Origin: an uncultured virus (IMG/VR IMGVR_UViG_3300046471_000229)
Lineage: Duplodnaviria; Heunggongvirae; Uroviricota; Caudoviricetes
IMG/VR virus record: IMGVR_UViG_3300046471_000229
Direction: 5' to 3' (one strand)
DNA length: 64,000 nt
This document shows, piece by piece, positions 21,385 to 37,828 of the stretch (positions are counted from its first letter, which is position 1; every line of letters starts with the position of its first letter). The notes under the pieces were generated by a model. The model saw only the letters and a program-made list of their open reading frames with translations, ran no database searches and had not been told where the DNA came from. The translations under genes were made by a program, and so were the position numbers.

Positions 21385-21432
21385 CCTGCTGATTACCCGG
21401 AGCGCGGTTTGAGGACATACGTATCCGCAAAA

Positions 21433-21451: not shown

Positions 21452-21467
21452 TAAAGCCGGCGATATA

Positions 21468-22019: not shown

Positions 22020-22038
22020 GCCAGCGAGGGCTGCCAGG

Positions 22039-22677: not shown

Positions 22678-22787
22678 AGAGGTGTTCCTTTTTTATTATT
22701 TTTTTTAGGACTGTACCCCCCGCTCAGTCGAGCGTCAATTGATGGCCTATGATGCATTCAGCTGCTTCCTACTGCCGCATTGGATCA

Positions 22788-23378: not shown

Positions 23379-23501
23379 CCCTTACACATCGATCTTCTCT
23401 TATCTTGGCTGGTACCTGACGGTAAATTCAACGCATAGCGCTTGGCTTATTTGAGCCATACGAGAAATTTCGGGATGGTGAGTAGAGCTAGCCTCGGCGA
23501 C

Positions 23502-23900
23502 CTAGTGCTGCGTATTCACATCAATCATCACACCCGTATACCGTAAAACCACATCATCCTTACCCAAGGCGATGACGATGATGGCTTCAGGATTCCACAA
23601 CTGATCATTGGTAAAGGCTTGAACGTCCGCATGGCTGATATTACCGATGATCGCGCCAGGCCCAGCCTCAATCATGAATTCTTTAGGTGTTCCAAGTACC
23701 TCGCGGTTCAGTAGGCGCTGGCGAACCTCCCGGCCAACGGCCCAAACCACCTGATGGGCTTCCGATGTCTTGGTGTAATGCCGGAGCGCTTCAAACGTGG
23801 TGTCGTTCAACAGCATCGGCGCACTACGCAAGAAGCACCCATCGGTAAGGGAATTAATCCCCTTTTCCAGCAACTCATCCAAGATCATCTCATGCTCCAA
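23502..23900 (-). CDS. hypothetical protein
   Basis: 132-aa ORF. Confidence 0.5.
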   Translation of the reverse strand: MEHEMILDELLEKGINSLTDGCFLRSAPMLLNDTTFEALRHYTKTSEAHQVVWAVGREVRQRLLNREVLGTPKEFMIEAGPGAIIGNISHADVQAFTNDQLWNPEAIIVIALGKDDVVLRYTGVMIDVNTQH

Positions 23901-23936
23901 ACGACCAGAATTTTACTGTACTGAGGTTGTCAATTT

Positions 23937-24380
23937 TTGACAATTGTCCGCTTCTTCGATAGATTCCAGAGATTCTCTCATGAGTTATCCAGCATGTTCG
24001 TCCTCATCCTCAAACGTTACCTGACATTCCTGATTGGCTATGTCTTCACCGCAGCTGCTCTATGGATCCTCGCCATCTGGTTTACGGATGGAGTGTTGCC
24101 GGTGTTGGCCTTTTTGGCGGTGATCTTCGCCATCATTTTCACTGTCCCGTACAAAATGTACACGGACTACACCGACATCAAAAATCAGACCATCGAACTC
24201 CTGGCGATCAGTCGAGGTCAGGGTGACGCGACACCGTATTTGGACAACCTCAAAGAGATGGTTGCCGAGAAAACAGGCATCCCAGCCCCTCTGGTGAGTT
24301 TCCTCGCGAACCGCTCGAAACAATTCGTCAGCGTTGTCCTCGACAAATCGAAAGCCAAAGCGCTAAGCCAACAGGCCTGA
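23937..24380 (+). CDS. membrane protein
   Basis: two TM helices. Confidence 0.55.
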   Translation: MTIVRFFDRFQRFSHELSSMFVLILKRYLTFLIGYVFTAAALWILAIWFTDGVLPVLAFLAVIFAIIFTVPYKMYTDYTDIKNQTIELLAISRGQGDATPYLDNLKEMVAEKTGIPAPLVSFLANRSKQFVSVVLDKSKAKALSQQA

Positions 24381-24506
24381 TCGCGTAACCTTGTAATGGT
24401 AGATGCTTCAGGATGACGAAGGAAGAGAAGGAATTTGCAGAAGGCATGGTTCGGGTCGAGAAGTACCATGCCTCGACCAGAGAACAATGGGCCAAAGTCC
24501 TGAAAG

Positions 24507-24887
24507 ATGCATCAGAGGCGAATCTTACCTTTGCCGGGCCCTTGGCCGGCAACACGCCTAAGCAGAAAAGCCCTCCCAAAGATGCCTAGAAAGCTCACTA
24601 TTTCCAGCCCAACGAATGCACCCCAAAAGCCTCAAGGGCTTGGACTTCAAATGCCTACATCGAAACGGAAAAAAGGCTATTACCATGCGCTTGCGGCTGG
24701 TGCCTCAGATGCTGACATAATCCTCTACTACGACGGCGAGCATTTGTTGGCTCATGGCAGCGCAGAGGCGGTAGCCCCAGGTCTGCTTGTTTTCATCCGC
24801 GAGGAGCCGATCAGCTTTCACAGGCCGGATGGCAGCTATGATGCACCGTTCATTGATGTCGACCAATGGTTGACTCAGGAATCATAA
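24507..24887 (+). CDS. hypothetical protein (start probably near 24651)
   Basis: ORF with a plausible C-terminal domain. Confidence 0.4.
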   Translation: MHQRRILPLPGPWPATRLSRKALPKMPRKLTISSPTNAPQKPQGLGLQMPTSKRKKGYYHALAAGASDADIILYYDGEHLLAHGSAEAVAPGLLVFIREEPISFHRPDGSYDAPFIDVDQWLTQES

Positions 24888-25024
24888 CTACCAACGGGGA
24901 TTTATTTCCATGCTGGCGGCTTGAACAAGAGCCACCAGAATCACACCGAGTTTACCGCAGCCCAGCCAGAAAGCACCGCTTTGAATGGGCCACATGGTAT
25001 GCCATCGCTAAACGGGAGGCTTTG

Positions 25025-25375
25025 TCAGGGGAAAATTCCATAGTTAGCGAGATAGGTCAAAATGATAGTCAGATTCTTAGGCCCCATACCTCGAAGGTCA
25101 CTCAGTTCCTTTCTGCTCATGGATCGCAACTGGCCAAAGGTCTGAATATCATTGCTACGAAGTACGTTGGCAGCTAGATAAAGGTCTGAATCGTAGAGAT
25201 TAAAATCATCGGGCGGCTGCGTGTTGTTAAGCGTATTTGCCTGGAGCTCTAGTGCTGACAATATTTCCCTGGCAGCCTGTGCGGATTCGCACTCGACCAA
25301 CGCCTTTGTGCCCTTTCCGTCGTGCTTGGTAATGACGAAGCGAGTAACTTCGCGAATTCGGAATTCTGGTTTCAT
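25025..25375 (-). CDS. protein with an RNA polymerase alpha-CTD-like domain
   Basis: AANVLRSNDIQTFGQLRSMSRKELSDLRGMGPKNLTII matches the alpha-CTD helix-hairpin pattern. Confidence 0.7.
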   Translation of the reverse strand: MKPEFRIREVTRFVITKHDGKGTKALVECESAQAAREILSALELQANTLNNTQPPDDFNLYDSDLYLAANVLRSNDIQTFGQLRSMSRKELSDLRGMGPKNLTIILTYLANYGIFP

Positions 25376-25760
25376 GGTGCTTCTCCGGCCTGCGCACAGG
25401 CTGAGTGAATTAAGAAAGTTACCTTGATAGCAATGACATCATAATGAGATCAGACCTGAAGCGCAATAACTCCGGGTGTTTATAGGTTGCAGGTCTTGGC
25501 CAGTAGAGCTGGTGTGACTTCTTGAGCAGCGAACTCGCGGGCAAGACGGCGGTTGGTCTCAGCCATACGGTCACGCGCAGCCTTCAGGCTCTCTTCATGA
25601 GTCCCGTTTCGGGTGCGGGCTTCTTCGATCATGCGTTCCAGAGTCAAAGCTCCAACTCCCTAGGATATAGGTTCCACAGTACAACAATGATTCGCAATCT
25701 ACGAGCTGTAGCTTTACTCACCTTTCACATTACAAAGCCAGACCTTCAGAAATCTAGCGC

Positions 25761-26225
25761 TTAACATGGTGGGTAATCGGGACGTTCGTAAGTATTCACG
25801 CCTGAGGCTCTTAGCCGCTCCATGTGCGCCGGAAAGTCGTTTCGCGGGTAGATCATCACCATTTGATCTATCCCCAGGTCTTTCTCTACTTCGTAATTAT
25901 GGCGGCTTACGTGCTTCATGCCTTTGCTGAGCCACTTGTACATCTCTTTACTAGCGCAAATGGCACGAGAGTAGCCCCACGATCTGCGGCATTGTAAATC
26001 GAGCTTGCCTTGCTTCCAGTTAAGGCGACGGCCAACCCCGTTATAGCGCACCATCACATCCAGGTCGCTGGGTTCTTGAGACCCCTTAACGGTCGAACCG
26101 AAAATCCAAACCTGATAAATCCTGACGGCTTCGAAATCACAAAGCGGTGTTGCCAGCAAACCATTAACTGCCTTGCAGCGTTCAGCAATCCGTTGCGCAT
26201 AGCGCTCAGCCAAATCTATTTTCAT
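25761..26225 (-). CDS. minimal nucleotidyltransferase (Pol-beta superfamily)
   Basis: WIFGSTVKG...SDLDV. Confidence 0.7.
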   Translation of the reverse strand: MKIDLAERYAQRIAERCKAVNGLLATPLCDFEAVRIYQVWIFGSTVKGSQEPSDLDVMVRYNGVGRRLNWKQGKLDLQCRRSWGYSRAICASKEMYKWLSKGMKHVSRHNYEVEKDLGIDQMVMIYPRNDFPAHMERLRASGVNTYERPDYPPC

Positions 26226-26295
26226 CTGAGGGTTACCGGAAAATTCGTATGCCCATGATCATAGTGTTGAATTGACAAAATGCCAAACAGCTCCT

Positions 26296-26733
26296 TCAGC
26301 CGTGAATGGACATCACCACGTCAGGATCAGCCGTTTTGGCAAGCCCAGGGCCCACAAGCACATAAACGGTGTTCACCGTTTCAAATAGCCCACTATGGGT
26401 AAAGGAGACCTGAAGCGTGCTGCGTACCCACTGACCACGGTAAAAGCGCCCAGCGCTGTCCTGAAGCACGTTGTGGGCATAAACCAGGTACGGCTCGCTG
26501 CCTATGCGTTGGATTGCCTTCAAAGAACGCTCATCGGCGTCCATCTTGATCAGCATCCAGTTTGAGACCAGGCAGTACGGTTTATTCGGAAAGTGACTCT
26601 TCACAAATGCAATGGCCTCCCCTTCGGTCATGTCTAAACCCATGAGCGATTCACCCGGAGTATTCAGGAAGCCTGAGACTGTGACTAGGTAGCTGTCTAC
26701 TGACTGCGGGAAAGTCGGCTCTTTTACGTTCAT
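26296..26733 (-). CDS. conserved hypothetical protein, related to 62584..63024
   Basis: DSAGRF..G.WVRST...FETVNTVYVLVG; likely start Met at 26733. Confidence 0.6.
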   Translation of the reverse strand: MNVKEPTFPQSVDSYLVTVSGFLNTPGESLMGLDMTEGEAIAFVKSHFPNKPYCLVSNWMLIKMDADERSLKAIQRIGSEPYLVYAHNVLQDSAGRFYRGQWVRSTLQVSFTHSGLFETVNTVYVLVGPGLAKTADPDVVMSIHG

Positions 26734-26843
26734 AGGGCTTATCCAATCTTTACGGTCTGTGGAGAATGCGGTGACTTGGTGGTTGTCACCTTCCGCCGCT
26801 TTGCAATCATATGGCATGAATTGCCGGCATCACAACTCGGTTG

Positions 26844-29639
26844 TCAGCCTTCGTGGTAAAACCCAAAACTCTCATCTCGATGGATTACCCGGTCTACCTG
26901 ATCAGGCTGGTAGTTGGCCAACTCGAAGACCATCGCCTCGTCCGGCTGGATGCCCAGCTCGATGCTCTTCTCCACCAGATACTCATCTGGCCAGACCAGC
27001 CAGGCGTTGGAAGCCGGCGCTGTCCTTCGGTAAGCCCGACGCTCCCAGGAGGATTTGTCAGTCGAGTTAACGACTTTCTGCAACACGAACTCACCGCAGT
27101 CCTGATCAACTGCAATCCGGTACCGATCCGTCGACGTTGACCCGCGCAACGGGTACCGCTCGTAGAAAGCTTGGGTCATCCAAGCCGCTTCGCACCCTTC
27201 CCGCCTGAGGATGATGTCCATACCCTCCTCAAGGCGCTTGCTGATGATTCTGTCCTCGTCCTTGGCAATCTGCCGCCCACTGAGTCGGAATGACGCGTCA
27301 ATGCGCTCCAGCGGTGTCTCAGCCCCGCCCACGTGAAGCATCTCACTGATCTTTGTTGAACTGTACCGGCAGGCCCTGACTTCGAATCCTGGTTTAACAA
27401 AACATGGTTGGCTGCCAAGCCCCTTACGCTGGCTCCCCTTCAGCGACCGTAGGTTGCAATCTAGGATCACCACGTTTGGCTTATCCACTTCCACCAGGCG
27501 ATGCCGGTTCACCCGCCCACTGGTTTGCACGATGGACTGAGCGCTCGACGGTTCGATGACAGCCCAGTCAAAGTCATGATCGCGCCCCACTTCTTCCACC
27601 GGCGTTGCGATGACAATCATTGGGACAGAGCCAGCCCCTGTCGGGAAAGCAGCGAGCAGCTCTGGATCTGACCCTAGCCTCTCATGGTGACCGCTTTTAC
27701 GGTTAAGCAGGTAGTCGAGCCTTTGTTCCTTCAGGTGCCGCTGAATGCGCAGCTCATTCGAGTGGTAACACGCGATCTTGGGCCCGGTGTCGCCGAATTG
27801 CTCACTTAGGTACCTGGCCACTTTAATGGCGGTCGAGATGTTGGCCACCCTAATCAGACCGAATGACAGGTGTTTGCCCGGCGCCAGCTCCCATTGGTGG
27901 TCGGCATGCAACTGCAGAACCGAATTCCGGATAATTTCGAGATAGGCCTGATCACTGTTCCCCGCCACCTTGGCGATCCTCGGCTGGCGATACACCGCCT
28001 TCTGCTGAAGGGAGTCGATCATTTCCGCGTAGCGGGCTGCGACAAAGGCACCGAACTCGCCGGCACCGTCGTGGAACCCAGCTGGCGGCAACAAATCATC
28101 GATCATGACCACAACCGGCCTCGTTGAGCCAGGCTCTACGGCCCCCCGCATCCGGGCACCACTCAGAAACGCTTCATGTACCGCAACCGCCACCGGTACC
28201 GATAACGTCGCCGACGAGCAAATCACATTCCGCCCGAGCATGGCACTCAGCTGTATCAGCCGCAGCACTGCGACCATCGCTTGGGGGTCGTAACTGTCTA
28301 TCTCGTCAAGTATGAGATCGCTGTTCATGACACGGAGCAGCGCCAGCGCATGGTGCCCCTGGCGGCCCGGCTCACTGGCGTTGATGATGAAGTCGATGGT
28401 CGACACAAGAACGGGTGGCATCAGCAGCTGGGGGGCCTTCTGGCTCCTTGCGAGAGGCTGAAGCCAAGTCGGAATCACGAAGTCATCACAGCTGACCTCG
28501 ATTTCTGTTTGATCACCGGCGTTACCATTCATTGAGAAGGCGTCCGAACTCGCCCTATGCATCTGCTCTGTGATGCGGTCACCGATCACGACCGCTATTT
28601 CGTCTGATCTGATTTGCAGGTCGATGCGAAGACTATCGCCGGTTTGGAGTGTCAGAGAGCGAAGGTTGAGAGCAACACAGAACCGAGGGTTTGCAGAAAG
28701 CGCACACGCTATTTTCGCATTGCCTCTGGTCTTTCCCGCCCCGGTGCCGGCGCCGCAGAAAACGAGTGCTGGAGCACAATTATTTTCTCTCACCGCCTTC
28801 AGGTAGGCCACTGCCTGATCTTGCCAATCGAAACGTGGATGCGTTGCCGGCGCCATGATCGAGGCAATCGTGGCCGGGCTCAACCCTGGGTACTCTTGCC
28901 TGCCCATTTCCATAGCAATGTCACCCGCCAGGTCGCCAACACTTCGCAAATGCCAATCGAGGGGCTGGTCATATCGACGCTGCCCGCTGGAAGTGTCCTT
29001 AGTATTTGCGAAAAGGCATGACGCCGCAGGCTGGCCGTGCAGCGCTTGATAATCCACTGAAGAAATGAAGTGGTCGGCCAGGATCAGGGCTGCTCGAGAA
29101 AATACGGCTATCAACTCCCAGTGTTCTGCTCCGTAAGCTTCGGGAATCCTGGTAAGAAGCCTCGAAGCGTCTGCGTAGAGGCCGCCATCGATATTTCCGG
29201 CAGACCTCACGCCACTAACTGGGATGTGTCCTTGTATGTGGGCCGCACCACTCAGAGCAATATCGCGCCCACCGAGGAGCTTATGGTGACTGACGAGCAG
29301 GTACTCGAGCACCCTGTCACGATCTACCAAACCTTTCTTCAGCGACTCGCAGTCATTGATCAACGACTGAGTGCTGGCGCCAACCCACGCAGCTTCAAAT
29401 CCGTGCACTCTCGCCGCCTTAAGCAGCGCGTACGAAAGCCATTCATGGCGAACCGGTTCGACCCGTCGCTCCCGGCCTTGTACGGAGTCTTCAAGCTTCA
29501 GGAAGAAATCTAGGCTGCTCTTGCCCCAATCATGGAGATAACCAGCCGCACGGGCCAGAAGGCAGGCTTGATCGAGCCATGTTGTGAGGCTAGTTTCACG
29601 CTGGATGGAGCTCGAAATGGGGACGAGAAGTGAGGTCAC
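26844..29639 (-). CDS. cas3: type I-F Cas3 HD nuclease/SF2 helicase lacking the N-terminal Cas2 domain
   Basis: HD motifs LHDWGK, RHE, SHH, ADH; Walker A GTGAGKT; ALNLRSLTLQTG; DEID; SAT; EVGRDHDFDWAV; QTSGRVNRH. Confidence 0.95.
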   Translation of the reverse strand: MTSLLVPISSSIQRETSLTTWLDQACLLARAAGYLHDWGKSSLDFFLKLEDSVQGRERRVEPVRHEWLSYALLKAARVHGFEAAWVGASTQSLINDCESLKKGLVDRDRVLEYLLVSHHKLLGGRDIALSGAAHIQGHIPVSGVRSAGNIDGGLYADASRLLTRIPEAYGAEHWELIAVFSRAALILADHFISSVDYQALHGQPAASCLFANTKDTSSGQRRYDQPLDWHLRSVGDLAGDIAMEMGRQEYPGLSPATIASIMAPATHPRFDWQDQAVAYLKAVRENNCAPALVFCGAGTGAGKTRGNAKIACALSANPRFCVALNLRSLTLQTGDSLRIDLQIRSDEIAVVIGDRITEQMHRASSDAFSMNGNAGDQTEIEVSCDDFVIPTWLQPLARSQKAPQLLMPPVLVSTIDFIINASEPGRQGHHALALLRVMNSDLILDEIDSYDPQAMVAVLRLIQLSAMLGRNVICSSATLSVPVAVAVHEAFLSGARMRGAVEPGSTRPVVVMIDDLLPPAGFHDGAGEFGAFVAARYAEMIDSLQQKAVYRQPRIAKVAGNSDQAYLEIIRNSVLQLHADHQWELAPGKHLSFGLIRVANISTAIKVARYLSEQFGDTGPKIACYHSNELRIQRHLKEQRLDYLLNRKSGHHERLGSDPELLAAFPTGAGSVPMIVIATPVEEVGRDHDFDWAVIEPSSAQSIVQTSGRVNRHRLVEVDKPNVVILDCNLRSLKGSQRKGLGSQPCFVKPGFEVRACRYSSTKISEMLHVGGAETPLERIDASFRLSGRQIAKDEDRIISKRLEEGMDIILRREGCEAAWMTQAFYERYPLRGSTSTDRYRIAVDQDCGEFVLQKVVNSTDKSSWERRAYRRTAPASNAWLVWPDEYLVEKSIELGIQPDEAMVFELANYQPDQVDRVIHRDESFGFYHEG

Positions 29640-29662
29640 TGAGCACCAACATATCGCATGTA

Positions 29663-29691
29663 TTGACGGAGGCCGGCATAGTACATATATT
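29663..29691 (+). promoter_or_regulatory. putative sigma70 promoter of the CRISPR array
   Basis: TTGACG-N17-TATATT followed by CCGCCCCCATC. Confidence 0.7.
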
Positions 29692-29782
29692 CCGCCCCCA
29701 TCTGAAGCCCTGGGTCTTTCTGCTGGTCAGGGAAATCCCTCTCACGCCGGGCACGTTCTTTAACATTCTCCTTTCCCCGTTT

Positions 29783-30846
29783 GTCCTCCACCGCCAAGGT
29801 GGTTTTGAAATGAATTTACCAACCAGGGTCAACTCAAGGTTTGTTCTCCACCTTGTGGGTGGTTTTGAATGATTAGCGGTTAAGTACTAGCTGCACAGCT
29901 GTTCACCACCTGCGGGTGGTTTAGAAATACAACGTGGTACCGACCCTTGTGAGCGCAGCGTTGACCAACGTCCAGGTGGTTTTTATAAGGATTGGCACGA
30001 CCCTGACGTCCCCCACCCTGAGGGTGGTTTTGAAAGCCGTTGGATGGCAGCTTGGCATTTACCACATTGAGGTGGTTTTGACACAGAAAGATCAAGCGGA
30101 CATTGGTTCTCCACCGTTCAGGTGGTTTTGAAAACTGGATAAATGACTTAACCACCTGCTTGGTGGTTTTGACACAGGAAGATCATGCGGTCAGTAGTTC
30201 TCCACCGACCTGGTGGTTTTGAGATCTATAAAAATGAAATTTTTCACCACTTTCGCTGTGGTTGTGAAATATCGTATTGCCCCGCGTCCATGGTGGCATG
30301 CATTCACCACTGCTGAGGTGGTTTGTGAAAAGACTGTAGGTACTGTCGTCCACCCTTGTGGTGGTTTTGATATTGCTAATGGCCATAGGCTTCATCCGTT
30401 TACCACCCACCGGTGGTTTTGAAATCAGCCTGGATACCGTTTGCTGTCCACCCTTGAGTGGTTTCGAAGTCATAGTGCTCCCCACGTGTTCCCCACCCTA
30501 AAGGGTGGTTTTGAAGAAGACTGAACCCAGCTTCCTGTTCTCCACTTTCGAGTGGTTTGGAATCTATATTCTGCGCTCCCGCGTGCCCGATCCCCGATTT
30601 ATCGGGGCTGGGCACGCTCGTTCTTCATCCCCACCGCACTGGTGGTTTAGAAGAAACACAATTCGAGTTCACCACCCTGCGGGTGGTTTGGAAAAACCCC
30701 AGTGAAGACGCGATTCTGTACCATTTGTTCACCACCCTACGGGTGGTTTTGAAGAGACTGTAGCCCGTCGACGCCATTCGCCTCCTCAGGCGACTGTTTC
30801 GAACAATCGGCTCTCCAGCGTCCGCCACCTTCGGGTGGTCTGAGCT
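29783..30846 (+). CRISPR. atypical type I-F CRISPR array, ~20 repeats with variable loops and 13-65 nt spacers
   Basis: consensus GTTCH-CCACC-N(4-6)-GGTGG-TTTTGAAA (27-29 nt), same geometry as the I-F repeat GTTCA-CTGCC-GTATA-GGCAG-CTAAGAAA; repeat starts at 29783, 29843, 29901, 29960, 30008, 30057, 30106, 30147, 30197, 30242, 30302, 30345, 30398, 30443, 30488, 30537, 30626, 30667, 30727, 30820; flanked by cas3 and cas8f. Confidence 0.92.
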
Positions 30847-30980
30847 TTTTCTGCGAAATTGCGGAGTCAATCAGCCAGCTTCCGATGGGTTTTTTACGTT
30901 TGAAGAATGAACCGTGGAGATTCCGTAAACCCTTACGCCGCAACGTTTTTCGCGATTTTTACCCAAACATAATTCAAGTG

Positions 30981-31009
30981 TTGACGAGTCATAACGTATT
31001 GCATATATT
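30981..31009 (+). promoter_or_regulatory. putative sigma70 promoter of the cas8f-cas6f operon
   Basis: TTGACG-N17-TATATT followed by GCCGCCCCATC. Confidence 0.7.
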
Positions 31010-31041
31010 GCCGCCCCATCACGACTAACGATGCACACAAA

Positions 31042-32142
31042 ATGACAAAAGAATCAGCGACAGCCGAAGCTGCAGATATCAAGGAGTGGAAAAGCCATCC
31101 TCTGGATGACTACTCCACAGCCATCGAAAAGCTTGTGCACCACTCGTTCAAAACTGTGAACACCAATGCTGAAGCCGGTGGCGTCCGGATCGCTAAAACG
31201 AACGGCACCAAACTGCCCTACGTTGGCGTGCGCACTCTGCTGGGCCACGGCATCGATGTCCTGATGGATCGCTACGAAGGCGCTGCGACCTCTCGGATCT
31301 ACTCCCAGATCAGTGAAGTTGCCCAGGGCCGTGTTGAAGGCGTTCCACCCCTGGAACTTGCTCATATCCAGCAATCCCTGGATCTGATCAAATCCAGGAG
31401 CCTGGTGCAGAGCCGGCAGATCTCGCCACGTGTGCGTCAGATCTTGCTGCCGCGCCCTGATGGTGGCTACCTGAGTGTTACGCCAATCTCTGCTGCCGGC
31501 GTTAGCCATCAGCTGAAGTCGTCCGCGCTGGCTCACAACCAGATGATCCATGAGCTTCGAAAGGCCAAGGATGAATCGGCTGAAGGCTTCAGGCGCATTA
31601 CGCTCGCCGACTTCCCTATCGGCGGCGCTAAGCCCCTGAACCCTGGCGGCATGGTGTTTTCCATGCGAGCACCTATCGTTGGGAAATTTCCGGCCATGGC
31701 CAGCGAGCGTTCACGCGCCCTTTCGCTGCATTACTACGGCATTCGCAACCTGCGTTTGCCCAAGGGCCTGCAAGCGGAGTACGTGAGCTGGCGCAACAAG
31801 CACAAAGGCATGGTTGAGGCTGATCAAGCTACTCGCACCGAGCATGCCAATTTGATCTCGCGCATGGTTCAGCACCTGCTGCGCTTGGGCTCGGACGCTT
31901 ACGAACTGCTCCAGCAAAATGCCGACAAACTCCCAGGCGGCGTGCTGCTGAGTGCCCAGGTCGGTCACCTTGAAGCTGGCCTGATTGATCCAGATCGTCG
32001 CACGACCAACTGGCGATACGACGCTGGTTCGGCACTTGCCCGGCGCTTCGCAGCGATTGAACGCGACGACACGCGCCAATACGAATATTCGCAAGGCGAG
32101 ATCAATGCGATTGCCGGCCTGGTGAGGAATAGCCTGAAATGA
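31042..32142 (+). CDS. cas8f: type I-F Cascade large subunit Cas8f (Csy1), short and divergent
   Basis: HSFK..NTNA, YVG..TL, RQILLP..DGGYLSVTPI and GGAKPLN correspond to Csy1 motifs; first gene of the operon. Confidence 0.8.
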   Translation: MTKESATAEAADIKEWKSHPLDDYSTAIEKLVHHSFKTVNTNAEAGGVRIAKTNGTKLPYVGVRTLLGHGIDVLMDRYEGAATSRIYSQISEVAQGRVEGVPPLELAHIQQSLDLIKSRSLVQSRQISPRVRQILLPRPDGGYLSVTPISAAGVSHQLKSSALAHNQMIHELRKAKDESAEGFRRITLADFPIGGAKPLNPGGMVFSMRAPIVGKFPAMASERSRALSLHYYGIRNLRLPKGLQAEYVSWRNKHKGMVEADQATRTEHANLISRMVQHLLRLGSDAYELLQQNADKLPGGVLLSAQVGHLEAGLIDPDRRTTNWRYDAGSALARRFAAIERDDTRQYEYSQGEINAIAGLVRNSLK

Positions 32143-32948
32143 GCTACTACCTGATTCTGAAACACCTTAACGTTCGCCATGCCAACGCATTGTCGAGCAA
32201 CTACGCGGTTACGGCGGCGCCCATCATGGCGGTCAACCTCTTTGCCCATGCAATGGGCCTGAAGATCGGTTGCCAGGCAGACGGCGTGGCGATGATCCAC
32301 CACGACGCCAAGTACTTGGCTGAGATGGACTTCCACAGCGGCTATAAGCGGCCTCAGTTCCAGCAGCGCCGCGCCTCAACCTACATCGACAAGAACGACT
32401 ATGTCGGTACCACCATGGCGCTCTCGTTGCAGCCGGTGGCCACCGTTCATTTGAAGATCAGTCTGGTAATCGAGTTTGCGACCAAACCTGACTTGGGCCT
32501 GGTAAAAGAGTTCCTGCATGAGGGTCGTCTTGCTGGCGGTGTAATCGAAAGCTACGCCACCCCGCAGGAATTCCATGAAAGCGATGACAAGCTGTTCGAT
32601 GCCATCCCTGGTAACGGGTTCTGGCTCATCGACCGTCAAGACTTGTTGGTTGGCGAAAACCCTGTGGATCTGCTGGTCAGCGAACTTGGTACTCGGGCGC
32701 AGTCTGACGCAAACGACTCGTGGCTCACTCCGGTTGTGCCGGCTTACGCCTTGACGTCCGAGCCTGCTGAACGTGTTGTGGGTGTCAGGAGCCTCTCAGA
32801 TGGCACCTACCCGGCCCACGCCTACGGCGAGCCACTGATGGGCCTGGCGCAGTACGTTTCAGTTCGTGAATTCGAGGGCGAATCCCTCCCGTTCTGGCGC
32901 AGCCGCTGGATCGACGACACCGTTTTCGCTGTAAGCACAACCTACTAA
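32139..32948 (+). CDS. cas5f: type I-F Cas5f (Csy2)
   Basis: LNVRHANALSS...FAHAM, RLAGGVI, YGEPLMGLAQY; overlaps the cas8f stop. Confidence 0.9.
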   Translation: MSYYLILKHLNVRHANALSSNYAVTAAPIMAVNLFAHAMGLKIGCQADGVAMIHHDAKYLAEMDFHSGYKRPQFQQRRASTYIDKNDYVGTTMALSLQPVATVHLKISLVIEFATKPDLGLVKEFLHEGRLAGGVIESYATPQEFHESDDKLFDAIPGNGFWLIDRQDLLVGENPVDLLVSELGTRAQSDANDSWLTPVVPAYALTSEPAERVVGVRSLSDGTYPAHAYGEPLMGLAQYVSVREFEGESLPFWRSRWIDDTVFAVSTTY

Positions 32949-32968
32949 TTTTTTAGAGAAGACCGACA

Positions 32969-34051
32969 ATGACCACACCGACTATTAAATTTTCGAAACT
33001 CCCAGGCGTCCTGTCTTTTACACGCCGTATCAACGTCACCGACTGCCTGTTCTTCAGTGGCATGCCTGACGGCTCGCTGAAGCCCCTGCTGGTAACCCGC
33101 AGCGGCCTGCGTGGTACGCAGAACATCAACAAGAAGGCCACCGGTGATCGCCAGGAAGTCTCGAACATCCAACTGACCGACTCGGCCAAAACCGATGTTG
33201 AAGCGGCGTCCCTGGTTGTTCAGATGGGCATCGGCTTCTATGCGCTGCAGAATGGCCTGAACTCCTGCGCTCTGTCCAAGACCGACGACGAGTCGTTGCT
33301 GGGTCAGTTCAAGGCCAGCTTTAACGGCTTCCTCGAACGCAGTGCCGGCGCCACCGGGATCTCTGCAGGTCTTCAAGAAGTCGCCAACCGCTATGCCCGA
33401 AACATCGCCAATGGTCGTTGGCTGTGGCGCAATCGTCAGTACGCACAGACCGTCAGTGTGACCGTCCAGTGTGGCGACGACATCATGACTTTCGACGCCC
33501 TGAAGACACCGCTGAACCGCTTCGACAACTACACCGCCGATGAACTTAAACTGGGCGGCTACATCGCCAGCTGCCTGGCCGGCCAGGCCCAACACAAGCT
33601 GACCGTCGGTGCCATCCTGAACTTCGGTGAAGGCATGAACGGCAGCATGGAAGTCTACCCATCTCAGAACTACCTGGGCGGAGACAAGCCAAAAGGCTTC
33701 GCTCGTTCGTTGTACGCGGTCGGTGAGTCCTTCCTGACCCCTGCAACTGACCTGATGGCGCTGCAGTCCAGCCGTATCGTCGGCCAGGCGGCATTGCGTG
33801 ACACCAAGGTGGCCAACGCCTTGCGCACCATGGATACCTGGTACCCTGATTTCGAATCCCACGGCCTGCCAATCTCGGTTGAACCGTGCGGTGCGAACCT
33901 GGACGCTCAAAAGATGTTCCGTGGCAACAAGGAATCGTCCTTCACCTTCATGCGCCAGCTCAATGCCACTGACGTCAACAGCGGCGAAGGCATGTTCATG
34001 ATCGCCTCGCTGATTCGTGGCGGCGTGTACTCCGAGGGTGGTGACAAGTAA
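32969..34051 (+). CDS. cas7f: type I-F Cas7f (Csy3)
   Basis: VLSFTRRI, YARNIANGRWLWRNR, EVYPSQ, KVANALRTMDTWYP, LIRGGVY. Confidence 0.95.
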   Translation: MTTPTIKFSKLPGVLSFTRRINVTDCLFFSGMPDGSLKPLLVTRSGLRGTQNINKKATGDRQEVSNIQLTDSAKTDVEAASLVVQMGIGFYALQNGLNSCALSKTDDESLLGQFKASFNGFLERSAGATGISAGLQEVANRYARNIANGRWLWRNRQYAQTVSVTVQCGDDIMTFDALKTPLNRFDNYTADELKLGGYIASCLAGQAQHKLTVGAILNFGEGMNGSMEVYPSQNYLGGDKPKGFARSLYAVGESFLTPATDLMALQSSRIVGQAALRDTKVANALRTMDTWYPDFESHGLPISVEPCGANLDAQKMFRGNKESSFTFMRQLNATDVNSGEGMFMIASLIRGGVYSEGGDK

Positions 34052-34602
34052 TGAAGCCCGCCACTTATGTTGACTACACCTTGAAGGTGGCCAACAGGGC
34101 GTCCGTTGCGGAGGTGTCCCAGGGCGCCTCCCTGCTGATGAAGGCACTGCACGCTGGCTTTTCCGAGTACAAGGAGAAGTTCGCGCTAGCCCTGCCGTTC
34201 CTCGACGAGTCCAGCCCTCAGAAGAAGCTGTCCACGTTCCGGGTGTTTGCCCAGAGCATGGAAGATCACGTCATGCTTCACGAATTCATGCAGCGCTCGG
34301 GGTATCTAGACACCTACTTTGTCGCCGGCTTCCCGAAAATGGTGCCAGCGGACTTCGCCGGCACGTACAAGGCCTTCAGCCGCGTGCGGATCAAGTCCCG
34401 AGCCGATGGCGTCAAGCGCCTGAAGAAAATGCTCGAGGTCGAATCCAACGGCAATCCATGGTTCAACGTCCAAAGCCGTGAAAACGGCCACCGGTTCCGG
34501 ATGTACGTCCAGAGCCACGTTGCAGAGGCAGGTAGTGAGGGGGTTCTCAACGGTTACGGGATGTCGCAGGCCGAAAACCTGCAATACCTACCACACCTTT
34601 GA
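34051..34602 (+). CDS. cas6f: type I-F crRNA endoribonuclease Cas6f (Csy4)
   Basis: KALH (catalytic His position), ALP, RVFA, SRENGHRF, NGYGMS glycine loop, LP terminus. Confidence 0.88.
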   Translation: MKPATYVDYTLKVANRASVAEVSQGASLLMKALHAGFSEYKEKFALALPFLDESSPQKKLSTFRVFAQSMEDHVMLHEFMQRSGYLDTYFVAGFPKMVPADFAGTYKAFSRVRIKSRADGVKRLKKMLEVESNGNPWFNVQSRENGHRFRMYVQSHVAEAGSEGVLNGYGMSQAENLQYLPHL

Positions 34603-34610
34603 TAACCGAC

Positions 34611-34634
34611 AAAAAAAGGGGTGCCAAGCACCCC
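34611..34634. terminator. hairpin after cas6f (terminator in minus orientation, or an operator)
   Basis: AAAAAAA-GGGGTGC-CAA-GCACCCC. Confidence 0.5.
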
Positions 34635-34681
34635 GCTCCTATTGGTTTGTAAAAACGCCATAAAGATTCGGAGCCCACCAA

Positions 34682-35242
34682 ATGCCCTACCGTTCTCCAG
34701 CTCTAACATGCCACACCAATGATACCGCCGTCCTGCGCGACTATGTCGAGCGCATCAAGCTCCGCCATGGGATTAGCCAACGTGACCAGGCAGCAGCCCT
34801 TGGCGTAGGCTGGACGACCTATCGTGATTGGCTCAATGGCACTGCGAAGTGGCCAAAAACGGCGCAGATAGCCCTGGAATCTTGGGCGCTTGCGCCGCTG
34901 GAAAACGACGATGACGACATTGCTGCACGGTGCCCGATCAACTTGCTGCTCGATGACGAACGAGCCCTGGTTGCGGCTTGGCGCTGCATACGCGGTGATG
35001 ACAAGATCTACAACCTGCCCTTGCCGTCGACGGTGAACATGTGGCCCGTGGAAATGCTCAAGTGTTTTGCCCGCGATGGTCACCTATACCCGGCATTTCA
35101 GATGGCGGTTAAGGCTGAATTGTATGACTTGGACGGGAACGAGGTACCACTGCCGAAAGTCGGGGCCGAGATGGTGTATCTCGCCGCATACGAATGGTGC
35201 GCACCAGAAGTTTTTAAGCGCCTGACCGAACTGATCGAGTGA
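34682..35242 (+). CDS. HTH regulator with an Aca1-like N-terminal domain and an unknown C-terminal domain
   Basis: GISQRDQAAALGV...P.TAQIALE pattern. Confidence 0.65.
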   Translation: MPYRSPALTCHTNDTAVLRDYVERIKLRHGISQRDQAAALGVGWTTYRDWLNGTAKWPKTAQIALESWALAPLENDDDDIAARCPINLLLDDERALVAAWRCIRGDDKIYNLPLPSTVNMWPVEMLKCFARDGHLYPAFQMAVKAELYDLDGNEVPLPKVGAEMVYLAAYEWCAPEVFKRLTELIE

Positions 35243-35396
35243 TCGTTACCAAATAGTTAACAGCTGATCGGGCGCTTCAAATTCGTATCTGTTTTCTTAC
35301 TGCCTGGATAAAAATCTTGGGCAAAAAAGTTGAGATGGTGCTTGAGGCCGGCTTCTAGGATGAGACAAGAAAGCGTTGGATCTGGTACTGATGCCA

Positions 35397-36017
35397 TCAA
35401 TGAGGTGAGGGAGAGTTCTCAACCACCTTCGGCTTGCTGACCTTGGTCGCGGCGGTTTTTTCCACTTCATCGCCGGCCATGATCATCGACGTCAGCATTT
35501 GAACCTGATTTTCAACCTCAGCCAGCACCTCGGCTTCGGTTTGCGTATGTGCAAACTTGGTCAGCGTGCGCTGCAAATAATCCTTAGGGAAGGTCATCAC
35601 TGGATCCAGGCCCAAAAGCTCGCCGGCTACGCCACCCGCAAAGTCGACACCCGTTTGACCACCGGAGATGACCCTCTCCAACGGCCAGTGCTTATGCACC
35701 AGATCCAGCACCTGGTACATCCACAGGTTGAGGTGTTCCTGGCGCCAGCCATAGTCCTTCAGCGTGTAGATGCCGTTACCCGCGATGTTGAGGACTTTTG
35801 CGCCTCGCTTACGGCATTCCGCGAACACCAGGCGGGCCGCCTCAATCGGCGACAAGCTCAGGTCGATGTGCAGGTATTTGTCGCCTGCGGCGGTCATGGT
35901 CAGTGCTTCGCCCTTGGAGGTGAAATCCTCGGCGAAAGCAACCGTCAGATCAGCCGTTTTGGCGTTGTGATAGGTGCGTGGCGGATAGGTAGCTTTTGTG
36001 TGTGCAACTGCTTTCAT
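35397..36017 (-). CDS. SLOG-family (YpsA/'MoCo carrier'-like) nucleotide-binding protein
   Basis: VISGGQTGVD and VLNIAGN motifs. Confidence 0.65.
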   Translation of the reverse strand: MKAVAHTKATYPPRTYHNAKTADLTVAFAEDFTSKGEALTMTAAGDKYLHIDLSLSPIEAARLVFAECRKRGAKVLNIAGNGIYTLKDYGWRQEHLNLWMYQVLDLVHKHWPLERVISGGQTGVDFAGGVAGELLGLDPVMTFPKDYLQRTLTKFAHTQTEAEVLAEVENQVQMLTSMIMAGDEVEKTAATKVSKPKVVENSPSPH

Positions 36018-36208
36018 GGGTGGCATCCGCCTTTTAGTGTCACTGAGAGATTGTTGAATTTTAACCATAACATTTGAGCTGTATTGACCGCTAGATCAGG
36101 GCTTTCATGGGGCTTCCAGCAGTCGCGTGTCATTGACAATACCTTAACAATCATTAAGATCGCCCTTCGCCGTTTTGCGGGCCCGTCTACCGATACCCAG
36201 AGCTTTAA

Positions 36209-37012
36209 ATGACCAGTCACAACCCAAACGTTCAATTCCTGAGCGCGCCAGAAGATTTGGTTGAACTTGAGCAGTATTGCCCACGCTGCAAGGACTGCTG
36301 GCCATTGACCTCTGAGTTCTGGTGGAAGGACTTGAAGCGACCTAGTGGTTTCTCGCGAAACTGCAAGGCGTGCAAGGCGGATTCCAAGAAAAAGGTTCCA
36401 TGCACCGTTGTCCCGGACACTCCCTCAAAAGCCTGTATCGGCTGCAAGGTGATCAAGCCCGTGACAAAAGCCTGTTGGCACCCTCGTCCAGGCTCTCCAG
36501 ATGGCTTTCGCAACAAGTGCATTGACTGCAATGCCAAAGCGAGGAAGGAACGCCGGGCGATGATCACGGCGTTGGTAGTGCCACCACCCCCAGTGTTTGT
36601 CATCACCCCGGAAACTCTGTTCAAGGTTTGCAGAATCTGTTTCGAGAGTAAGCCAAACGACCTCGCTTTTTGGCACAAGTGTCAACGCTATGGCTTACGT
36701 AGAGACTGCAAGTCATGCCGTAAGCTTGAGGAGACTCGCCGGCGTCGTAAGCTACTTGCACCCCCTGTTGAGCTGGCACCACTTGAAGATCGCATGTATG
36801 GGATCAGGCGCACATATGTGAAAAAAACTGTGGCTCCCAACGTTACGTGCCGTGTGTGCAGGGAATCAAAAGCTTTAACCACAGAATTTTTTCACAGAAA
36901 CAATCAGAGCCCGACCGGCTTCAAACACAAGTGCAAGGTGTGCTGCTCAGCCTATGAGAGAGCATCCAGCAAAAATCGCCGGGACGCCATGGCGGCGCTA
37001 CAGGGAAAATGA
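36209..37012 (+). CDS. protein with four CxxC...CxxC zinc-ribbon repeats
   Basis: CPRC/CKAC, CIGC/CIDC, CRIC/CKSC, CRVC/CKVC. Confidence 0.75.
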   Translation: MTSHNPNVQFLSAPEDLVELEQYCPRCKDCWPLTSEFWWKDLKRPSGFSRNCKACKADSKKKVPCTVVPDTPSKACIGCKVIKPVTKACWHPRPGSPDGFRNKCIDCNAKARKERRAMITALVVPPPPVFVITPETLFKVCRICFESKPNDLAFWHKCQRYGLRRDCKSCRKLEETRRRRKLLAPPVELAPLEDRMYGIRRTYVKKTVAPNVTCRVCRESKALTTEFFHRNNQSPTGFKHKCKVCCSAYERASSKNRRDAMAALQGK

Positions 37013-37033
37013 TGGAACCGGCCAAGCGGGCTG

Positions 37034-37639: not shown

Positions 37640-37828
37640 TGGATTATCAGTAGGTACTGGGTTACGCTCCCCCGAAGCACGCCACATCGATGGAAAGTCG
37701 GCGTGCTGACGAAACTTATGTTGCACCCGCCGTAGGCACGTAAGGCGGGCCGAAAGAGGCACGCGGCCTCCGGTCGACACCAAGCAAAATGACTCATCTA
37801 GCCAATGAGCCCTCTGAGGTGATTACGA

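What the first reader, a model, noticed from the sequence alone, without database searches (positions are those of the whole stretch)
29783..30846. Repeats conserved in structure, not sequence: hypervariable loops on a fixed stem and handle
Seen: the 3' arm core GTGG is present in all 20 repeats and the 5' arm core CCAC in 19 of 20. The loops are almost all different: gccaa, ttgtg, tgcg, gtcca, ctgag, ttga, gttca, tgctt, gacct, ttcgc, gctga, cttgt, cacc, cttg, ctaaag, ttcg, gcact, ctgcg, ctacg, ttcg. The repeat at 30537 has a compensatory pair (CCACT/AGTGG) and the one at 30302 a G-U wobble. There is no leader-to-trailer decay gradient: near-consensus units occur at 29901 and at 30667/30727. 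Inference: this is an old array, no longer homogenised by Cas1-Cas2 copying but under selection for Cas6f cleavage and Cas5f/Cas8f handle binding. Diverged repeats would also resist recombinational loss, and standard CRISPR finders could miss them.
Basis: partly seen in the sequence, partly recalled or inferred. Interest (0 to 1): 0.85.

Follow-up and report, generated by a model that had tools for sequence, protein, structure and literature searches.

The report
Plasmid CRISPR array of short regulatory guides
A worn-looking CRISPR array on a giant Pseudomonas plasmid appears to be a fixed set of short guide RNAs, kept by selection, one aimed at its own cas promoter and others at conserved core genes of the host, which would make it a natural multi-guide gene-silencing device rather than an immune memory.

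Summary
There are 20 type I-F-like repeats at 29783-30846: GTGG in 20/20, CCAC in 19/20, 19 different loops and 20 different repeats. Two corrections apply. The stem is conserved in sequence, with little covariation. The spacing is irregular, with spacers of 13-65 nt and only 4 of 19 at 32 nt.

The array lies between a Cas2-less cas3f and cas8f-like/cas5f/cas7f/cas6f. No cas1 was found in the nearest genome. Three related plasmid loci and one metagenome contig share the layout, and the PLMAX genome has no cas3.

Between these plasmids, loops differ at 53% of positions. That matches four-fold codon sites (40-57%), so the loops drift neutrally and are not hypermutable.

The main finding is in the spacers. 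Nine are conserved in order across plasmids, mostly over their first 11-16 nt. Within positions 1-12, changes fall almost only on 6 and 12, the bases a Cascade complex flips out.

Spacer 17 matches a CC-PAM site 3 nt upstream of the -35 of the cas8f promoter, a known autoregulatory arrangement. Other conserved seeds match CC-PAM sites in both host chromosomes searched: the atpI promoter -10, the rplJ leader, rplM, zwf, tktA, trxB, serC and the livH 5'UTR.

Expression, processing and repression are untested.

The parts
26844..29639 (-). cas3f-like helicase-nuclease (931 aa) without a Cas2 domain
   Evidence: Pfam Cas3-like_C_2 at 8.7e-25. NCBIfam TIGR02562 scores 559.2 bits, just under its 565.95 cut-off; the best stretch covers model positions 308-1053 of 1110. 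The HD domain match is weak, 27.2 bits. No Cas2 part is matched.
29663..29691 (+). promoter-like site reading into the array (TTGACG-17-TATATT)
   Evidence: Promoter scan, 10 of 12 matches. Conserved in G001, pPL1, pPLMAXa and L306 as TTGACG-N17-(C)ATATATT-CCGCC.
29783..30846 (+). array of 20 diverged I-F-type repeats (consensus GTTCACCACC-loop-GGTGGTTTTGAAA) with spacers of 13-65 nt
30084..30105 (+). guide Sa copy 1 (first 16 nt conserved in 4 arrays)
   Evidence: No CC+seed site was found for this form, which has A at position 4.
30175..30196 (+). guide Sa copy 2 (G at position 4)
   Evidence: With the PAM, 14 pairing positions fit trxB codons 7-12 on the antisense strand in G001 and G002.
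30330..30344 (+). guide Sb (AAGACTGTAGG...)
   Evidence: Conserved in pPL1, pPLMAXa and L306. A CC+seed site lies in the rplA-rplJ intergenic region.
30373..30397 (+). guide Sc (TTGCTnATGGC...)
   Evidence: Conserved in 3 plasmids. The target is ambiguous: 7 and 10 genome hits against 3 and 2 control hits.
30425..30442 (+). guide Sd (TCAGCnTGGATnCCG)
   Evidence: Conserved in pPLMAXa and L306, varying only at positions 6 and 12. The CC site is in tktA codons 14-19.
30470..30487 (+). guide Se (TCATAnTGCTC)
   Evidence: Conserved in pPLMAXa. The CC site lies 11 codons before the rplM stop codon, upstream of rpsI.
30517..30536 (+). guide Sf (AAGACnGAACC..GCTTCCT)
   Evidence: Conserved in pPLMAXa. 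The CC site is in zwf codons 10-13.
30564..30575 (+). guide Sg seed (CTATAnTCTGCG), first 12 nt of a 62-nt interval
   Evidence: Conserved in pPL1, pPLMAXa and L306. The CC site overlies the -10 of a TTGAAT-17-TATACT promoter-like site upstream of atpI. The site is present in 142 of 151 sampled genomes of the genus.
30654..30666 (+). guide Sh, 13-nt spacer (AAACACAATTCGA), autoregulatory
   Evidence: The only spacer with a CC+seed match inside the window.
30755..30767 (+). guide Si seed (AGACTGTAGCC..), start of a 65-nt interval
   Evidence: Conserved in pPLMAXa and pPL1. The CC site is intergenic, upstream of an HDOD-domain gene.
30963..30977 (+). target of guide Sh: PAM CC (30963-30964) plus AAACATAATTCAA
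   Evidence: All 11 pairing positions match; the mismatches fall only at positions 6 and 12. The site ends 3 nt before the -35.
30981..31009 (+). promoter-like site of the cas8f-cas6f operon (TTGACG-17-TATATT)
31042..32142 (+). cas8f-slot protein (366 aa), very divergent
   Evidence: No Pfam, NCBIfam or PDB sequence hit. Only 13 homologues exist among 5.8 billion proteins, all unnamed. For a medium-quality model (pLDDT 63.6), the top 12 Foldseek hits are all chains of solved type I-F Csy complexes (10 chain A, one B, one J), best E 5.3e-4.
32139..32948 (+). cas5f (Csy2)
   Evidence: Pfam Cas_Csy2 at 2.4e-12.
32969..34051 (+). cas7f (Csy3)
   Evidence: Pfam at 2.2e-60. TIGR02566 scores 214.7 bits, over its cut-off.
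34051..34602 (+). cas6f (Csy4)
   Evidence: Pfam Cas_Csy4 at 4.2e-10, 40.5 bits against a cut-off of 25. NCBIfam is below its cut-off. No PDB sequence hit.

Best explanation
The array is an inherited, no-longer-growing type I-F CRISPR array carried by a family of roughly 1-Mb Pseudomonas megaplasmids. It has been turned into a fixed set of short guide RNAs.

Proposed mechanism:
1. The array is transcribed from the promoter-like site at 29663.
2. Cas6f cuts the transcript at each CCACC/GGTGG hairpin.
3. Each short spacer (13-25 nt) loads into a small Cas8f-Cas5f-Cas7f-Cas6f complex.
4. The complex binds DNA carrying a CC PAM and 11-17 nt of complementarity. That is enough to sit on DNA and hinder transcription but too little to license Cas3.

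One guide (spacer 17) sits just upstream of the -35 of its own cas8f operon, giving autorepression. Most other conserved guides fit invariant sites in host core genes: the atp operon promoter, the rplJ leader, rplM-rpsI, zwf, tktA, trxB, serC and livH.

Selection therefore keeps the stem, the TTT..GAAA handle and the seed. Loops, the sixth and twelfth spacer bases and the spacer tails drift at the neutral rate, which is what makes the repeats look 'hypervariable'.

Shown by computation: the anatomy, the rates, the conservation pattern and the matches. Inferred: transcription, Cas6f cutting, complex assembly on short guides, DNA binding and repression.
For: Locus and relatives:
- I-F genes flank the array.
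- No Cas1 match was found in G001 or G002, and the Cas3 has no Cas2 domain.
- The same layout occurs in pPL1 (L008), pPLMAXa (L009), L010 and metagenome contig L306.
- pPLMAXa and its whole genome G002 have no cas3f by tblastn or TIGR02562, yet keep the array and the four Cascade genes.

Rates between plasmids:
- Loops differ at 112/212 positions (53%).
- Four-fold codon sites differ at 40-57% in 12 gene comparisons.
- The arms differ at 7-15%.

Spacer conservation:
- Nine spacers are collinear across plasmids.
- Differences at spacer positions 1 to 18 are 0, 0, 0, 4, 0, 7, 0, 0, 0, 0, 0, 14, 8, 10, 9, 5, 11, 6, out of 16-21 comparisons per position.
- Position 6 varies in 5 of 9 groups, against 2 of 90 group-positions for the pairing positions. 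Fisher p = 3e-5.
- L306 adds Sd, Sb and Sg, again varying only at positions 6 and 12.
- Two pairs shared by the sister arrays of G001 and pPL1 (G001_B40/pPL1_B16 and G001_B42/pPL1_B21) differ only at positions 6 and 12 over their aligned 14-17 nt; other shared pairs also differ elsewhere.

Own-promoter target:
- Spacer 17 is the only one of 19 window spacers with a CC+seed match in the 64 kb. The site lies at 30963-30977, next to the cas8f promoter.

Host sites:
- Exact CC+seed sites occur in both G001 and G002 for 9 of 11 conserved seed patterns.
- The reversed-pattern controls gave no hit in either genome for 5 of those 9.
- Uniform-model expectations per genome are 0.0009 to 0.9.
- The best cases match 16-17 contiguous nt plus the PAM.
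- The atpI promoter site is present in 142/151 sampled genomes of the genus. That count includes unpublished G101 and G152; without them it is 140/149.
- Two non-conserved short spacers gave no exact site.

Precedent:
- Passages of PMC10120712 describe I-F1 mini-arrays between cas3 and cas8 with short spacers, mismatches at positions 6 and 12, a CC PAM and Cas3-independent repression.
Against: - There is no evidence of expression or processing. No RNA run holds the locus.
- The 12-nt seed patterns (Sb, Se, Sf, Si) are expected about once per genome by chance. The two host chromosomes are related, so a site shared by both adds little.
- Extensions beyond the seed were read from whichever plasmid variant fitted best.
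- Sc is ambiguous.
- The commonest form of Sa has no site.
- The win9/pPL1-4 seed has none.
- A 31-nt spacer conserved 30/31 between two plasmids has no match anywhere searched.
- Across all 131 spacers, CC+10-nt seed hits on the plasmids themselves equal the reversed-seed control, 17 against 19.
- Nine of 10 proposed targets have the protospacer on the sense strand. As I recall, though I did not check it here, that is not the orientation that best blocks elongation.
- pPLMAXa keeps guide Sh but lacks its target.
- Silencing of ATP synthase, ribosomal and pentose-phosphate genes by a resident plasmid has no obvious benefit.
- Whether Csy complexes assemble on 13-nt spacers is unknown here.
Confidence: 0.68

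Rival explanations
1. A decaying relic. The array is an old immune array left without an adaptation module. It is eroding by point changes and small deletions, has no present function, and the host matches are chance or traces of old self-derived spacers.
For: - There is no cas1 or cas2.
- Spacer lengths are irregular.
- Three of 20 stems carry mispairs.
- Two window-specific changes damage unit 4 relative to G001.
- Decayed units lacking GTGG occur in relatives.
- cas3 is absent in pPLMAXa.
- The 12-nt seed matches are individually near chance.
Against: - Neutral sites have diverged 40-57% between the plasmids, yet seed pairing positions differ in 4 of 210 position comparisons, and the changes fall on positions 6 and 12.
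- The stems are retained.
- Spacer 17 fits its own cas promoter exactly at all pairing positions.
- Several host matches run 16-19 nt including the PAM.
Confidence: 0.08
2. An ordinary interference array. The units are normal immune crRNAs against plasmids or phages that are simply absent from databases. Cas3 degrades the targets, and repeat diversity is only a matter of age.
For: - cas3f is intact in the window, G001 and pPL1.
- Four 32-nt spacers are present.
- Sister arrays carry mostly 32-nt spacers. pPL1 array B has 7 identical consensus repeats within its first 15 units.
- Metagenome contigs show consensus repeats flanking other 32-nt spacers.
Against: - Fifteen of 19 spacers are not 32 nt, and many are 13-22 nt.
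- Conservation is confined to the seed.
- No match to 72,556 plasmid or 50,697 phage records was found apart from the sister plasmid.
- pPLMAXa works, if at all, without cas3.
Confidence: 0.1
3. Decoy or anti-CRISPR RNA. The repeat units act as RNA mimics that soak up Cas6f or Cas7f of a host or rival I-F system, so only the hairpin and handle matter.
For: - Strong conservation of hairpin and handle with free loops.
- The element is a plasmid.
- RNA anti-CRISPRs of this kind are described in a review passage of PMC11656645.
Against: - The array sits with its own cognate cas genes.
- The spacer seeds are more conserved than the repeats and show the 6/12 pattern of target pairing, which a decoy does not need.
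- No other I-F system (Cas1, Cas3f) was found in G002.
Confidence: 0.05
4. Guides for something other than repression. The conserved host sites serve as landing marks, for example for integration or transposition as in CRISPR-associated transposons, or for tethering the plasmid.
For: - The guides have atypical repeats and short matches to highly conserved chromosomal sites. This recalls the homing crRNAs of I-F CASTs, described in a review passage of PMC11656645.
- Nuclease-free versions exist.
Against: - No transposase or TniQ family appeared among the 21 window ORFs (20584-38725) scanned against Pfam or the 6 beside the pPLMAXa locus.
- cas8f and cas5f are separate genes.
- Most sites are at promoters or 5' ends, where an insertion would be harmful.
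Confidence: 0.05

Closest known systems
Autoregulatory mini-arrays of type I-F1 / CreR-type 'degenerated mini-CRISPRs' (PMC10120712, passages read; bioRxiv 10.1101/2023.03.10.532045, listing and start of abstract only)
   Same: - It sits between cas3 and cas8f and is read away from cas3.
- The repeats are diverged with their stems kept.
- The spacer is shorter than normal.
- The match to the cas8f-operon promoter has a CC PAM, with mismatches at positions 6 and 12.
- It is expected to repress without Cas3.
   Different: - Those elements have two repeats and one spacer. Here there are 20 units, at least 9 of them conserved guides, and only one is aimed at the cas promoter.
- The system lacks cas1 and cas2 altogether, and in one relative cas3 as well.
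- It is carried by megaplasmids.
- Most proposed targets are host core genes.
CreTA (crRNA-like antitoxin repressing a small toxin gene; bioRxiv 10.64898/2026.06.02.729485, listing and start of abstract)
   Same: A Cascade complex is reprogrammed by a seed-length guide to silence a gene.
   Different: No toxin gene was identified next to the array, and the proposed targets are distant chromosomal genes.
Plasmid-borne type IV-A systems, including the Pseudomonas oleovorans megaplasmid spacer against host pilN (review passage, PMC11656645)
   Same: It is a megaplasmid-encoded, adaptation-less CRISPR effector that silences rather than cuts, with a host gene among its targets.
   Different: - Type IV uses Csf proteins and DinG with full-length spacers.
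- Here the genes are I-F, the guides are truncated to the seed, and many are aimed at housekeeping genes.
Canonical type I-F CRISPR arrays
   Same: The repeat is 28 nt of the form GTTCAC-5 bp stem-loop-stem-8 nt handle ending GAAA. Related loci carry CCACC/GGTGG stems.
   Different: - In canonical arrays a median of 95.5% of repeats equal the array consensus and the period is 60 nt.
- Here every repeat differs and the spacing is irregular.
Homing crRNAs of I-F3 CRISPR-associated transposons (review passage, PMC11656645)
   Same: The repeats are atypical, the matches are short and fall on conserved chromosomal sites, and no nuclease is involved.
   Different: No transposition genes were found among the ORFs scanned, cas8f and cas5f are not fused, and there are many guides rather than one.

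Membership tests
Type I-F CRISPR-Cas | Cas7f (Csy3) | tested here: met
   TIGR02566 scores 214.7 bits against a cut-off of 157.55. Pfam 2.2e-60.
Type I-F CRISPR-Cas | Cas5f (Csy2) and Cas6f (Csy4) | tested here: met
   Both pass the Pfam cut-offs, at 47.1 and 40.5 bits against 25. Both fall below the NCBIfam equivalog cut-offs, so they are divergent members.
Type I-F CRISPR-Cas | Cas8f (Csy1) | tested here: inconclusive
   No profile or PDB sequence hit. The model has mean pLDDT 63.6. The top 12 Foldseek hits are all chains of solved type I-F Csy complexes (10 chain A, one B, one J), but TM-scores are only 0.17-0.27.
Type I-F CRISPR-Cas | Cas2-Cas3 fusion and Cas1 | tested here: not met
   The Cas3f match starts beyond the Cas2 part of the model, at 559.2 bits against a cut-off of 565.95. 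No PF01867 match in G001 or G002. The Cas1 on pPL1 lies in a separate operon about 16 kb away.
Type I-F CRISPR-Cas | 28-nt repeat with a 5-bp stem and 8-nt handle, and regular 32-nt spacers | tested here: not met
   The repeat form is met. Regular 32-nt spacing is not: only 4 of 19 spacers are 32 nt.
I-F1 autoregulatory mini-array / CreR | Short spacer matching the effector-operon promoter next to a CC PAM, with mismatches tolerated at every sixth base | tested here: met
   Spacer 17 against 30963-30977, 3 nt upstream of the -35. When no PAM was demanded, the seed hit beside the cas operon still carried CC.
I-F1 autoregulatory mini-array / CreR | Represses cas transcription without Cas3 | not testable with these tools
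   Needs a reporter assay.
I-F1 autoregulatory mini-array / CreR | Stand-alone unit of two repeats and one spacer | tested here: not met
   The unit is number 17 of a 20-unit array.
I-F3 CRISPR-associated transposon | tnsA/B/C and tniQ next to the cas genes; fused cas8/cas5 | tested here: not met
   No such Pfam family appeared among the 21 window ORFs (20584-38725) scanned or the 6 beside the pPLMAXa locus. cas8f-like and cas5f are separate ORFs. Only those ORFs were scanned.
Type IV-A | Csf proteins and DinG helicase | tested here: not met
   The genes are Csy2, Csy3 and Csy4.

The most novel reading that the evidence does not exclude
A family of Pseudomonas megaplasmids carries a hard-wired, multi-guide CRISPR interference programme. 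It uses a Cas1-less, and sometimes Cas3-less, I-F Cascade. About ten or more seed-length guides are aimed at genus-wide invariant sites in the host's energy, translation and pentose-phosphate/redox genes: the atp operon promoter, the rplJL-rpoBC leader, rplM-rpsI, zwf, tktA, trxB, serC and livH. One further guide sets the level of Cascade itself. The plasmid would thereby tune host growth and metabolism in whatever Pseudomonas it enters.
Probability: 0.4. Interest if true: 0.92.

Novelty: new variant of a known kind. Interest (0 to 1): 0.8.

Why it matters
If the reading is right, this is a natural example of multiplexed CRISPR interference encoded by a mobile element and directed at its host's core genes. 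Regulatory crRNA-like RNAs known so far are single units that control cas genes or a nearby toxin.

It would give:
- a new route of plasmid-chromosome crosstalk;
- a case where an array persists for guide function without any adaptation genes;
- a ready-made mutational scan of what Cas6f and Cascade need in a repeat (stem and TTT..GAAA needed, loop free) and in a guide (11-17 nt, with positions 6 and 12 free).

There is also a practical lesson. Arrays like this escape period-based detection, so similar regulatory arrays may be under-counted.

Three literature searches of the held library listed no paper describing such an array. That library lacks most subscription journals.

Tried and rejected
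- RNA evidence: no RNA holder was listed for window 29600-34602. The four DNA runs laid down gave only strain variants.
- Rfam: no family at gathering score anywhere in the window.
- Foreign protospacers: the window array and the G001 sister array, searched against plasmid and phage collections, matched only the sister plasmid pPL1. There was no match in E. coli genomes.
- On-plasmid targets: CC+10-nt seeds of all 131 spacers against their own plasmids gave 17 hits, against 19 for reversed seeds, so there is no enrichment. The Sb site among iteron-like repeats of G001:C1 and the Sc site inside an ORF are not conserved in the other plasmids and were dropped.
- Loop hypermutation: rejected, because loop divergence equals neutral divergence.
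- Covariation as proof of structure: weak in this data set.
- Sequence search of Cas6f and the Cas8f-slot protein against the PDB: nothing found.
- Distribution: the Cas8f-slot protein was found in 1 of 401 sampled genomes of the genus, namely G001 itself.
- Seeds without host sites: Sa with A at position 4, the win9/pPL1-4 seed, spacers 4 and 5, and the fully conserved 31-nt spacer of the sister arrays.
- The long Sf pattern found no exact site.
- CRT, MinCED and CRISPRCasFinder are not available here.
- Promoter calls: none at the Sb site. At the Si site the only promoter-like call lies on the opposite strand.
Full report
WHAT IS THERE

Between 29783 and 30846 the + strand carries 20 copies of a 26-29-nt unit. 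Its form is GTTCA-CCACC-loop-GGTGG-TTTTGAAA.

I built a covariance model from 122 such units, taken from this window and from relatives. Scored over the whole window with filters off, it finds these 20 and nothing else of note. The unit at 30057 was not used in training and was still found, at 16.9 bits.

- GTGG is present in 20 of 20 units and CCAC in 19 of 20.
- There are 19 different loops, and no two whole repeats are alike.
- 17 of 20 stems have five standard pairs.
- 19 of 20 units fold with the expected helix.

First, the stem is conserved as sequence, and covariation is weak. Second, the spacing is irregular. Spacer lengths are 32, 30, 32, 20, 21, 22, 13, 22, 17, 32, 15, 25, 18, 18, 20, 62, 13, 32, 65.

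SETTING

Upstream, on the other strand, lies a Cas3f-like gene (26844-29639) that lacks the Cas2 domain. Downstream lie a very divergent Cas8f-slot gene, then cas5f, cas7f and cas6f.

Two almost identical promoter-like sites, both TTGACG-17-TATATT, read rightwards. One reads into the array (29663) and one into the cas operon (30981).

The window's own assembly is not held. The nearest genome, G001, has the locus at 98% identity on a 1.06-Mb contig.

The same layout occurs in:
- a Pseudomonas silesiensis plasmid record (L008);
- a Pseudomonas sp. PLMAX plasmid record (L009);
- the record behind L010;
- a metagenome contig (L306).

No Cas1 family match exists in G001 or G002. The Cas1 on the silesiensis plasmid belongs to another operon. 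G002 has no Cas3f at all. The Cas8f-slot protein was found in 1 of 401 sampled genomes of the genus.

HOW UNUSUAL

The other 74 relatives found through Cas7f (about 50% identity or less) carry regular arrays downstream of cas6f. In the 58 arrays analysed, 2 of them masked, a median of 95.5% of repeats equal the consensus.

In the megaplasmid family, distinct repeats number 20/20, 46/47, 17/17 and 16/16. In one sister array, 7 identical consensus repeats lie within the first 15 units and the remaining units are diverged. That pattern is what ageing without renewal would give.

RATES

I matched orthologous units across three plasmids by their shared spacers and order. The proportions of differing positions are:

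| Part | Differing positions |
|---|---|
| Loops | 112/212 |
| 5' GTTCA | 90/210 |
| Handle | 101/336 |
| 5' arm | 32/210 |
| 3' arm | 15/210 |

Four of the five 3'-arm positions were fixed by my search anchor.

Four-fold degenerate sites of cas5f, cas6f, cas7f and the cas8f-slot gene differ at 40-57%. The loops are therefore neutral, not hypermutable, and the arms are constrained.

Searching with the model rather than with a GTGG anchor also brings out a few truly compensated stems: CCATC/GATGG in two plasmids and CCGC/GCGG twice in L306.

THE SPACERS

Nine spacers recur in the same order in the window, L008 and L009. Three of them recur again in L306.

They are alike over their first 11-16 nt and unlike further on. 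Differences at spacer positions 1-18 are 0, 0, 0, 4, 0, 7, 0, 0, 0, 0, 0, 14, 8, 10, 9, 5, 11, 6. Within the first twelve positions, 21 of 25 differences fall on positions 6 and 12.

Counted by group, position 6 varies in 5 of 9 groups. The ten pairing positions vary in 2 of 90 group-positions (p = 3e-5).

The groups were found by similarity, which favours conserved runs. It does not favour this periodicity, and collinearity supports orthology independently.

In type I complexes every sixth guide base is flipped out and does not pair. This point is stated for I-F1 in the passages of PMC10120712 that I read. The pattern is therefore the footprint of selection on Cascade-type pairing.

Two spacer pairs shared by the sister arrays of G001 and the silesiensis plasmid differ only at positions 6 and 12 over their aligned 14-17 nt. 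Other shared pairs also differ elsewhere.

Recent differences between the window and its close relative spare the seeds. Two of them fall on flipped positions: spacer 12 position 6 and spacer 15 position 18.

TARGETS

Inside the window there is only one CC-PAM plus seed match. Spacer 17 (AAACACAATTCGA) matches CC-AAACATAATTCAA at 30963-30977, with mismatches only at positions 6 and 12. The site ends 3 nt before the -35 of the cas8f operon. This is the arrangement described for I-F1 regulatory mini-arrays.

Two relatives lack both this guide and this site. L009 keeps the guide but not the site.

On the plasmids themselves, seed hits are at background level.

In the whole genomes G001 and G002, exact CC+seed sites shared by both were found for 9 of 11 conserved seed patterns:

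| Guide | Site |
|---|---|
| Sg | -10 hexamer of a TTGAAT-17-TATACT site upstream of atpI |
| Sb | rplA-rplJ intergenic region, within an Rfam P27 match |
| Se | 11 codons before the end of rplM, upstream of rpsI |
| Sf | zwf codons 10-13 |
| Sd | tktA codons 14-19 |
| Sa variant with G at position 4 | trxB codons 7-12, antisense |
| Si | upstream of an HDOD-domain gene |
| Sister-array guide | 19-35 nt upstream of the livH start |
| Sister-array guide | within serC |

The tool's reversed-pattern controls gave no hit in either genome for 5 of those 9.

Uniform expectations per genome range from 0.0009 to about 1. The short patterns are therefore individually weak, and the case rests on the set and on the longer matches of 16-17 contiguous nt plus the PAM.

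The atpI site is present in 142 of 151 sampled genomes of the genus. That count includes the unpublished G101 and G152; without them it is 140 of 149. The control rang in 2 genomes.

Negative or unclear results:
- Sc is ambiguous.
- The commonest form of Sa has no site.
- The win9-type seed has none.
- Spacers 4 and 5 have no exact site.
- A 31-nt spacer conserved 30/31 between two plasmids has no match.

MECHANISM

The best-supported reading is a fixed guide set for a Cascade that binds but does not cut. Short complementarity avoids Cas3, and one lineage has dispensed with Cas3 altogether.

The following are inferred, not shown: autorepression through guide 17, repression of host genes through the others, and processing by Cas6f at a hairpin whose loop is free to vary.

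Unexplained points are recorded in the notebook:
- the sense-strand bias of the targets (9 of 10; p = 0.02);
- the missing target of the main Sa form;
- repeated spacers flanked by unlike loops in the sister array;
- the benefit to a plasmid of damping such genes.

KNOWN RELATIVES

The autoregulatory unit is a member of a described kind. The whole is not. It is a long, conserved, adaptation-less I-F array of seed-length guides on megaplasmids, apparently directed at host core genes.

The closest parallels are the single-unit mini-arrays (CreR, CreA), the type IV-A plasmid systems with their host pilN spacer, and CAST homing guides. Three searches of the held library listed nothing equivalent.

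Noticed in passing
window 30071-30237: A 91-nt tandem duplication (1.8 copies, 82% matches) spans two repeat-spacer units, so guide Sa is present twice. The two copies differ at spacer positions 4, 12 and 17 within the first 19 nt.
   Followed up: partly
window 30581-30617: An imperfect palindrome (GCGTGCCCGATCCCCGAT..ATCGGGGCTGGGCACGC) lies inside the 62-nt interval after guide Sg. Relatives also have long, unlike sequence at this place.
   Followed up: no
G001:C1 852,217-855,034 (L007, L152); plasmid record behind L008 at 300,216-301,715 and 196,465-196,672: These are orphan sister arrays with the same repeat family, far from the cas genes, holding 47, 27 and 4 units. Their spacers are mostly 32 nt, some are shared in order between plasmids, and their far ends carry short spacers.
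   Followed up: partly
G001 array B, units 1-9 (L007): One spacer occurs three times and another three times, almost unchanged, but the copies are flanked by repeats with quite different loops. Drift after block duplication cannot explain this.
   Followed up: no
G001:C1 371,134-373,764; plasmid record behind L008 at 957,817-959,670: A second, distant Cas3f-like gene (27% identity, open frame 1158 aa) lies elsewhere on the plasmids.
   Followed up: no
L089 1433-9745 (plasmid record behind L008): An eight-gene operon ending in a Cas1 (295 aa) and a 94-aa ORF lies about 16 kb from the I-F locus and looks like a separate type I system. Only Cas1 was tested.
   Followed up: partly
G001:C1 about 697,900-698,140: Four iteron-like repeats (ATGTGGAC..GTGTC) sit in an intergenic stretch, possibly a replication origin. 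A CC+Sb seed site lies between them but is not conserved in the other plasmids.
   Followed up: partly
window 29664-29700 and 30981-31020; G001:C1 126,026; L306 about 4040-4090: A shared promoter motif, TTGAC-N17-CATATATT(G/C)CCGCC, recurs in front of the array, the cas operon and at least one other plasmid gene.
   Followed up: no
window 25761-26817 (-): Next to cas3 lie a DUF6957 protein (173 aa, Pfam 6.1e-37) and a small protein with weak nucleotidyltransferase matches, below cut-off, including an MntA-antitoxin-like hit.
   Followed up: no
runs X5 and X3 laid on window 30663-30755: Contigs of other samples carry consensus repeats flanking other 32-nt spacers. Regular arrays with this repeat therefore exist elsewhere.
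   Followed up: no
window 34682-38725: Five ORFs downstream of cas6f are mostly without any family hit. One has a SLOG (cpYpsA) domain at 35397-36068.
   Followed up: no
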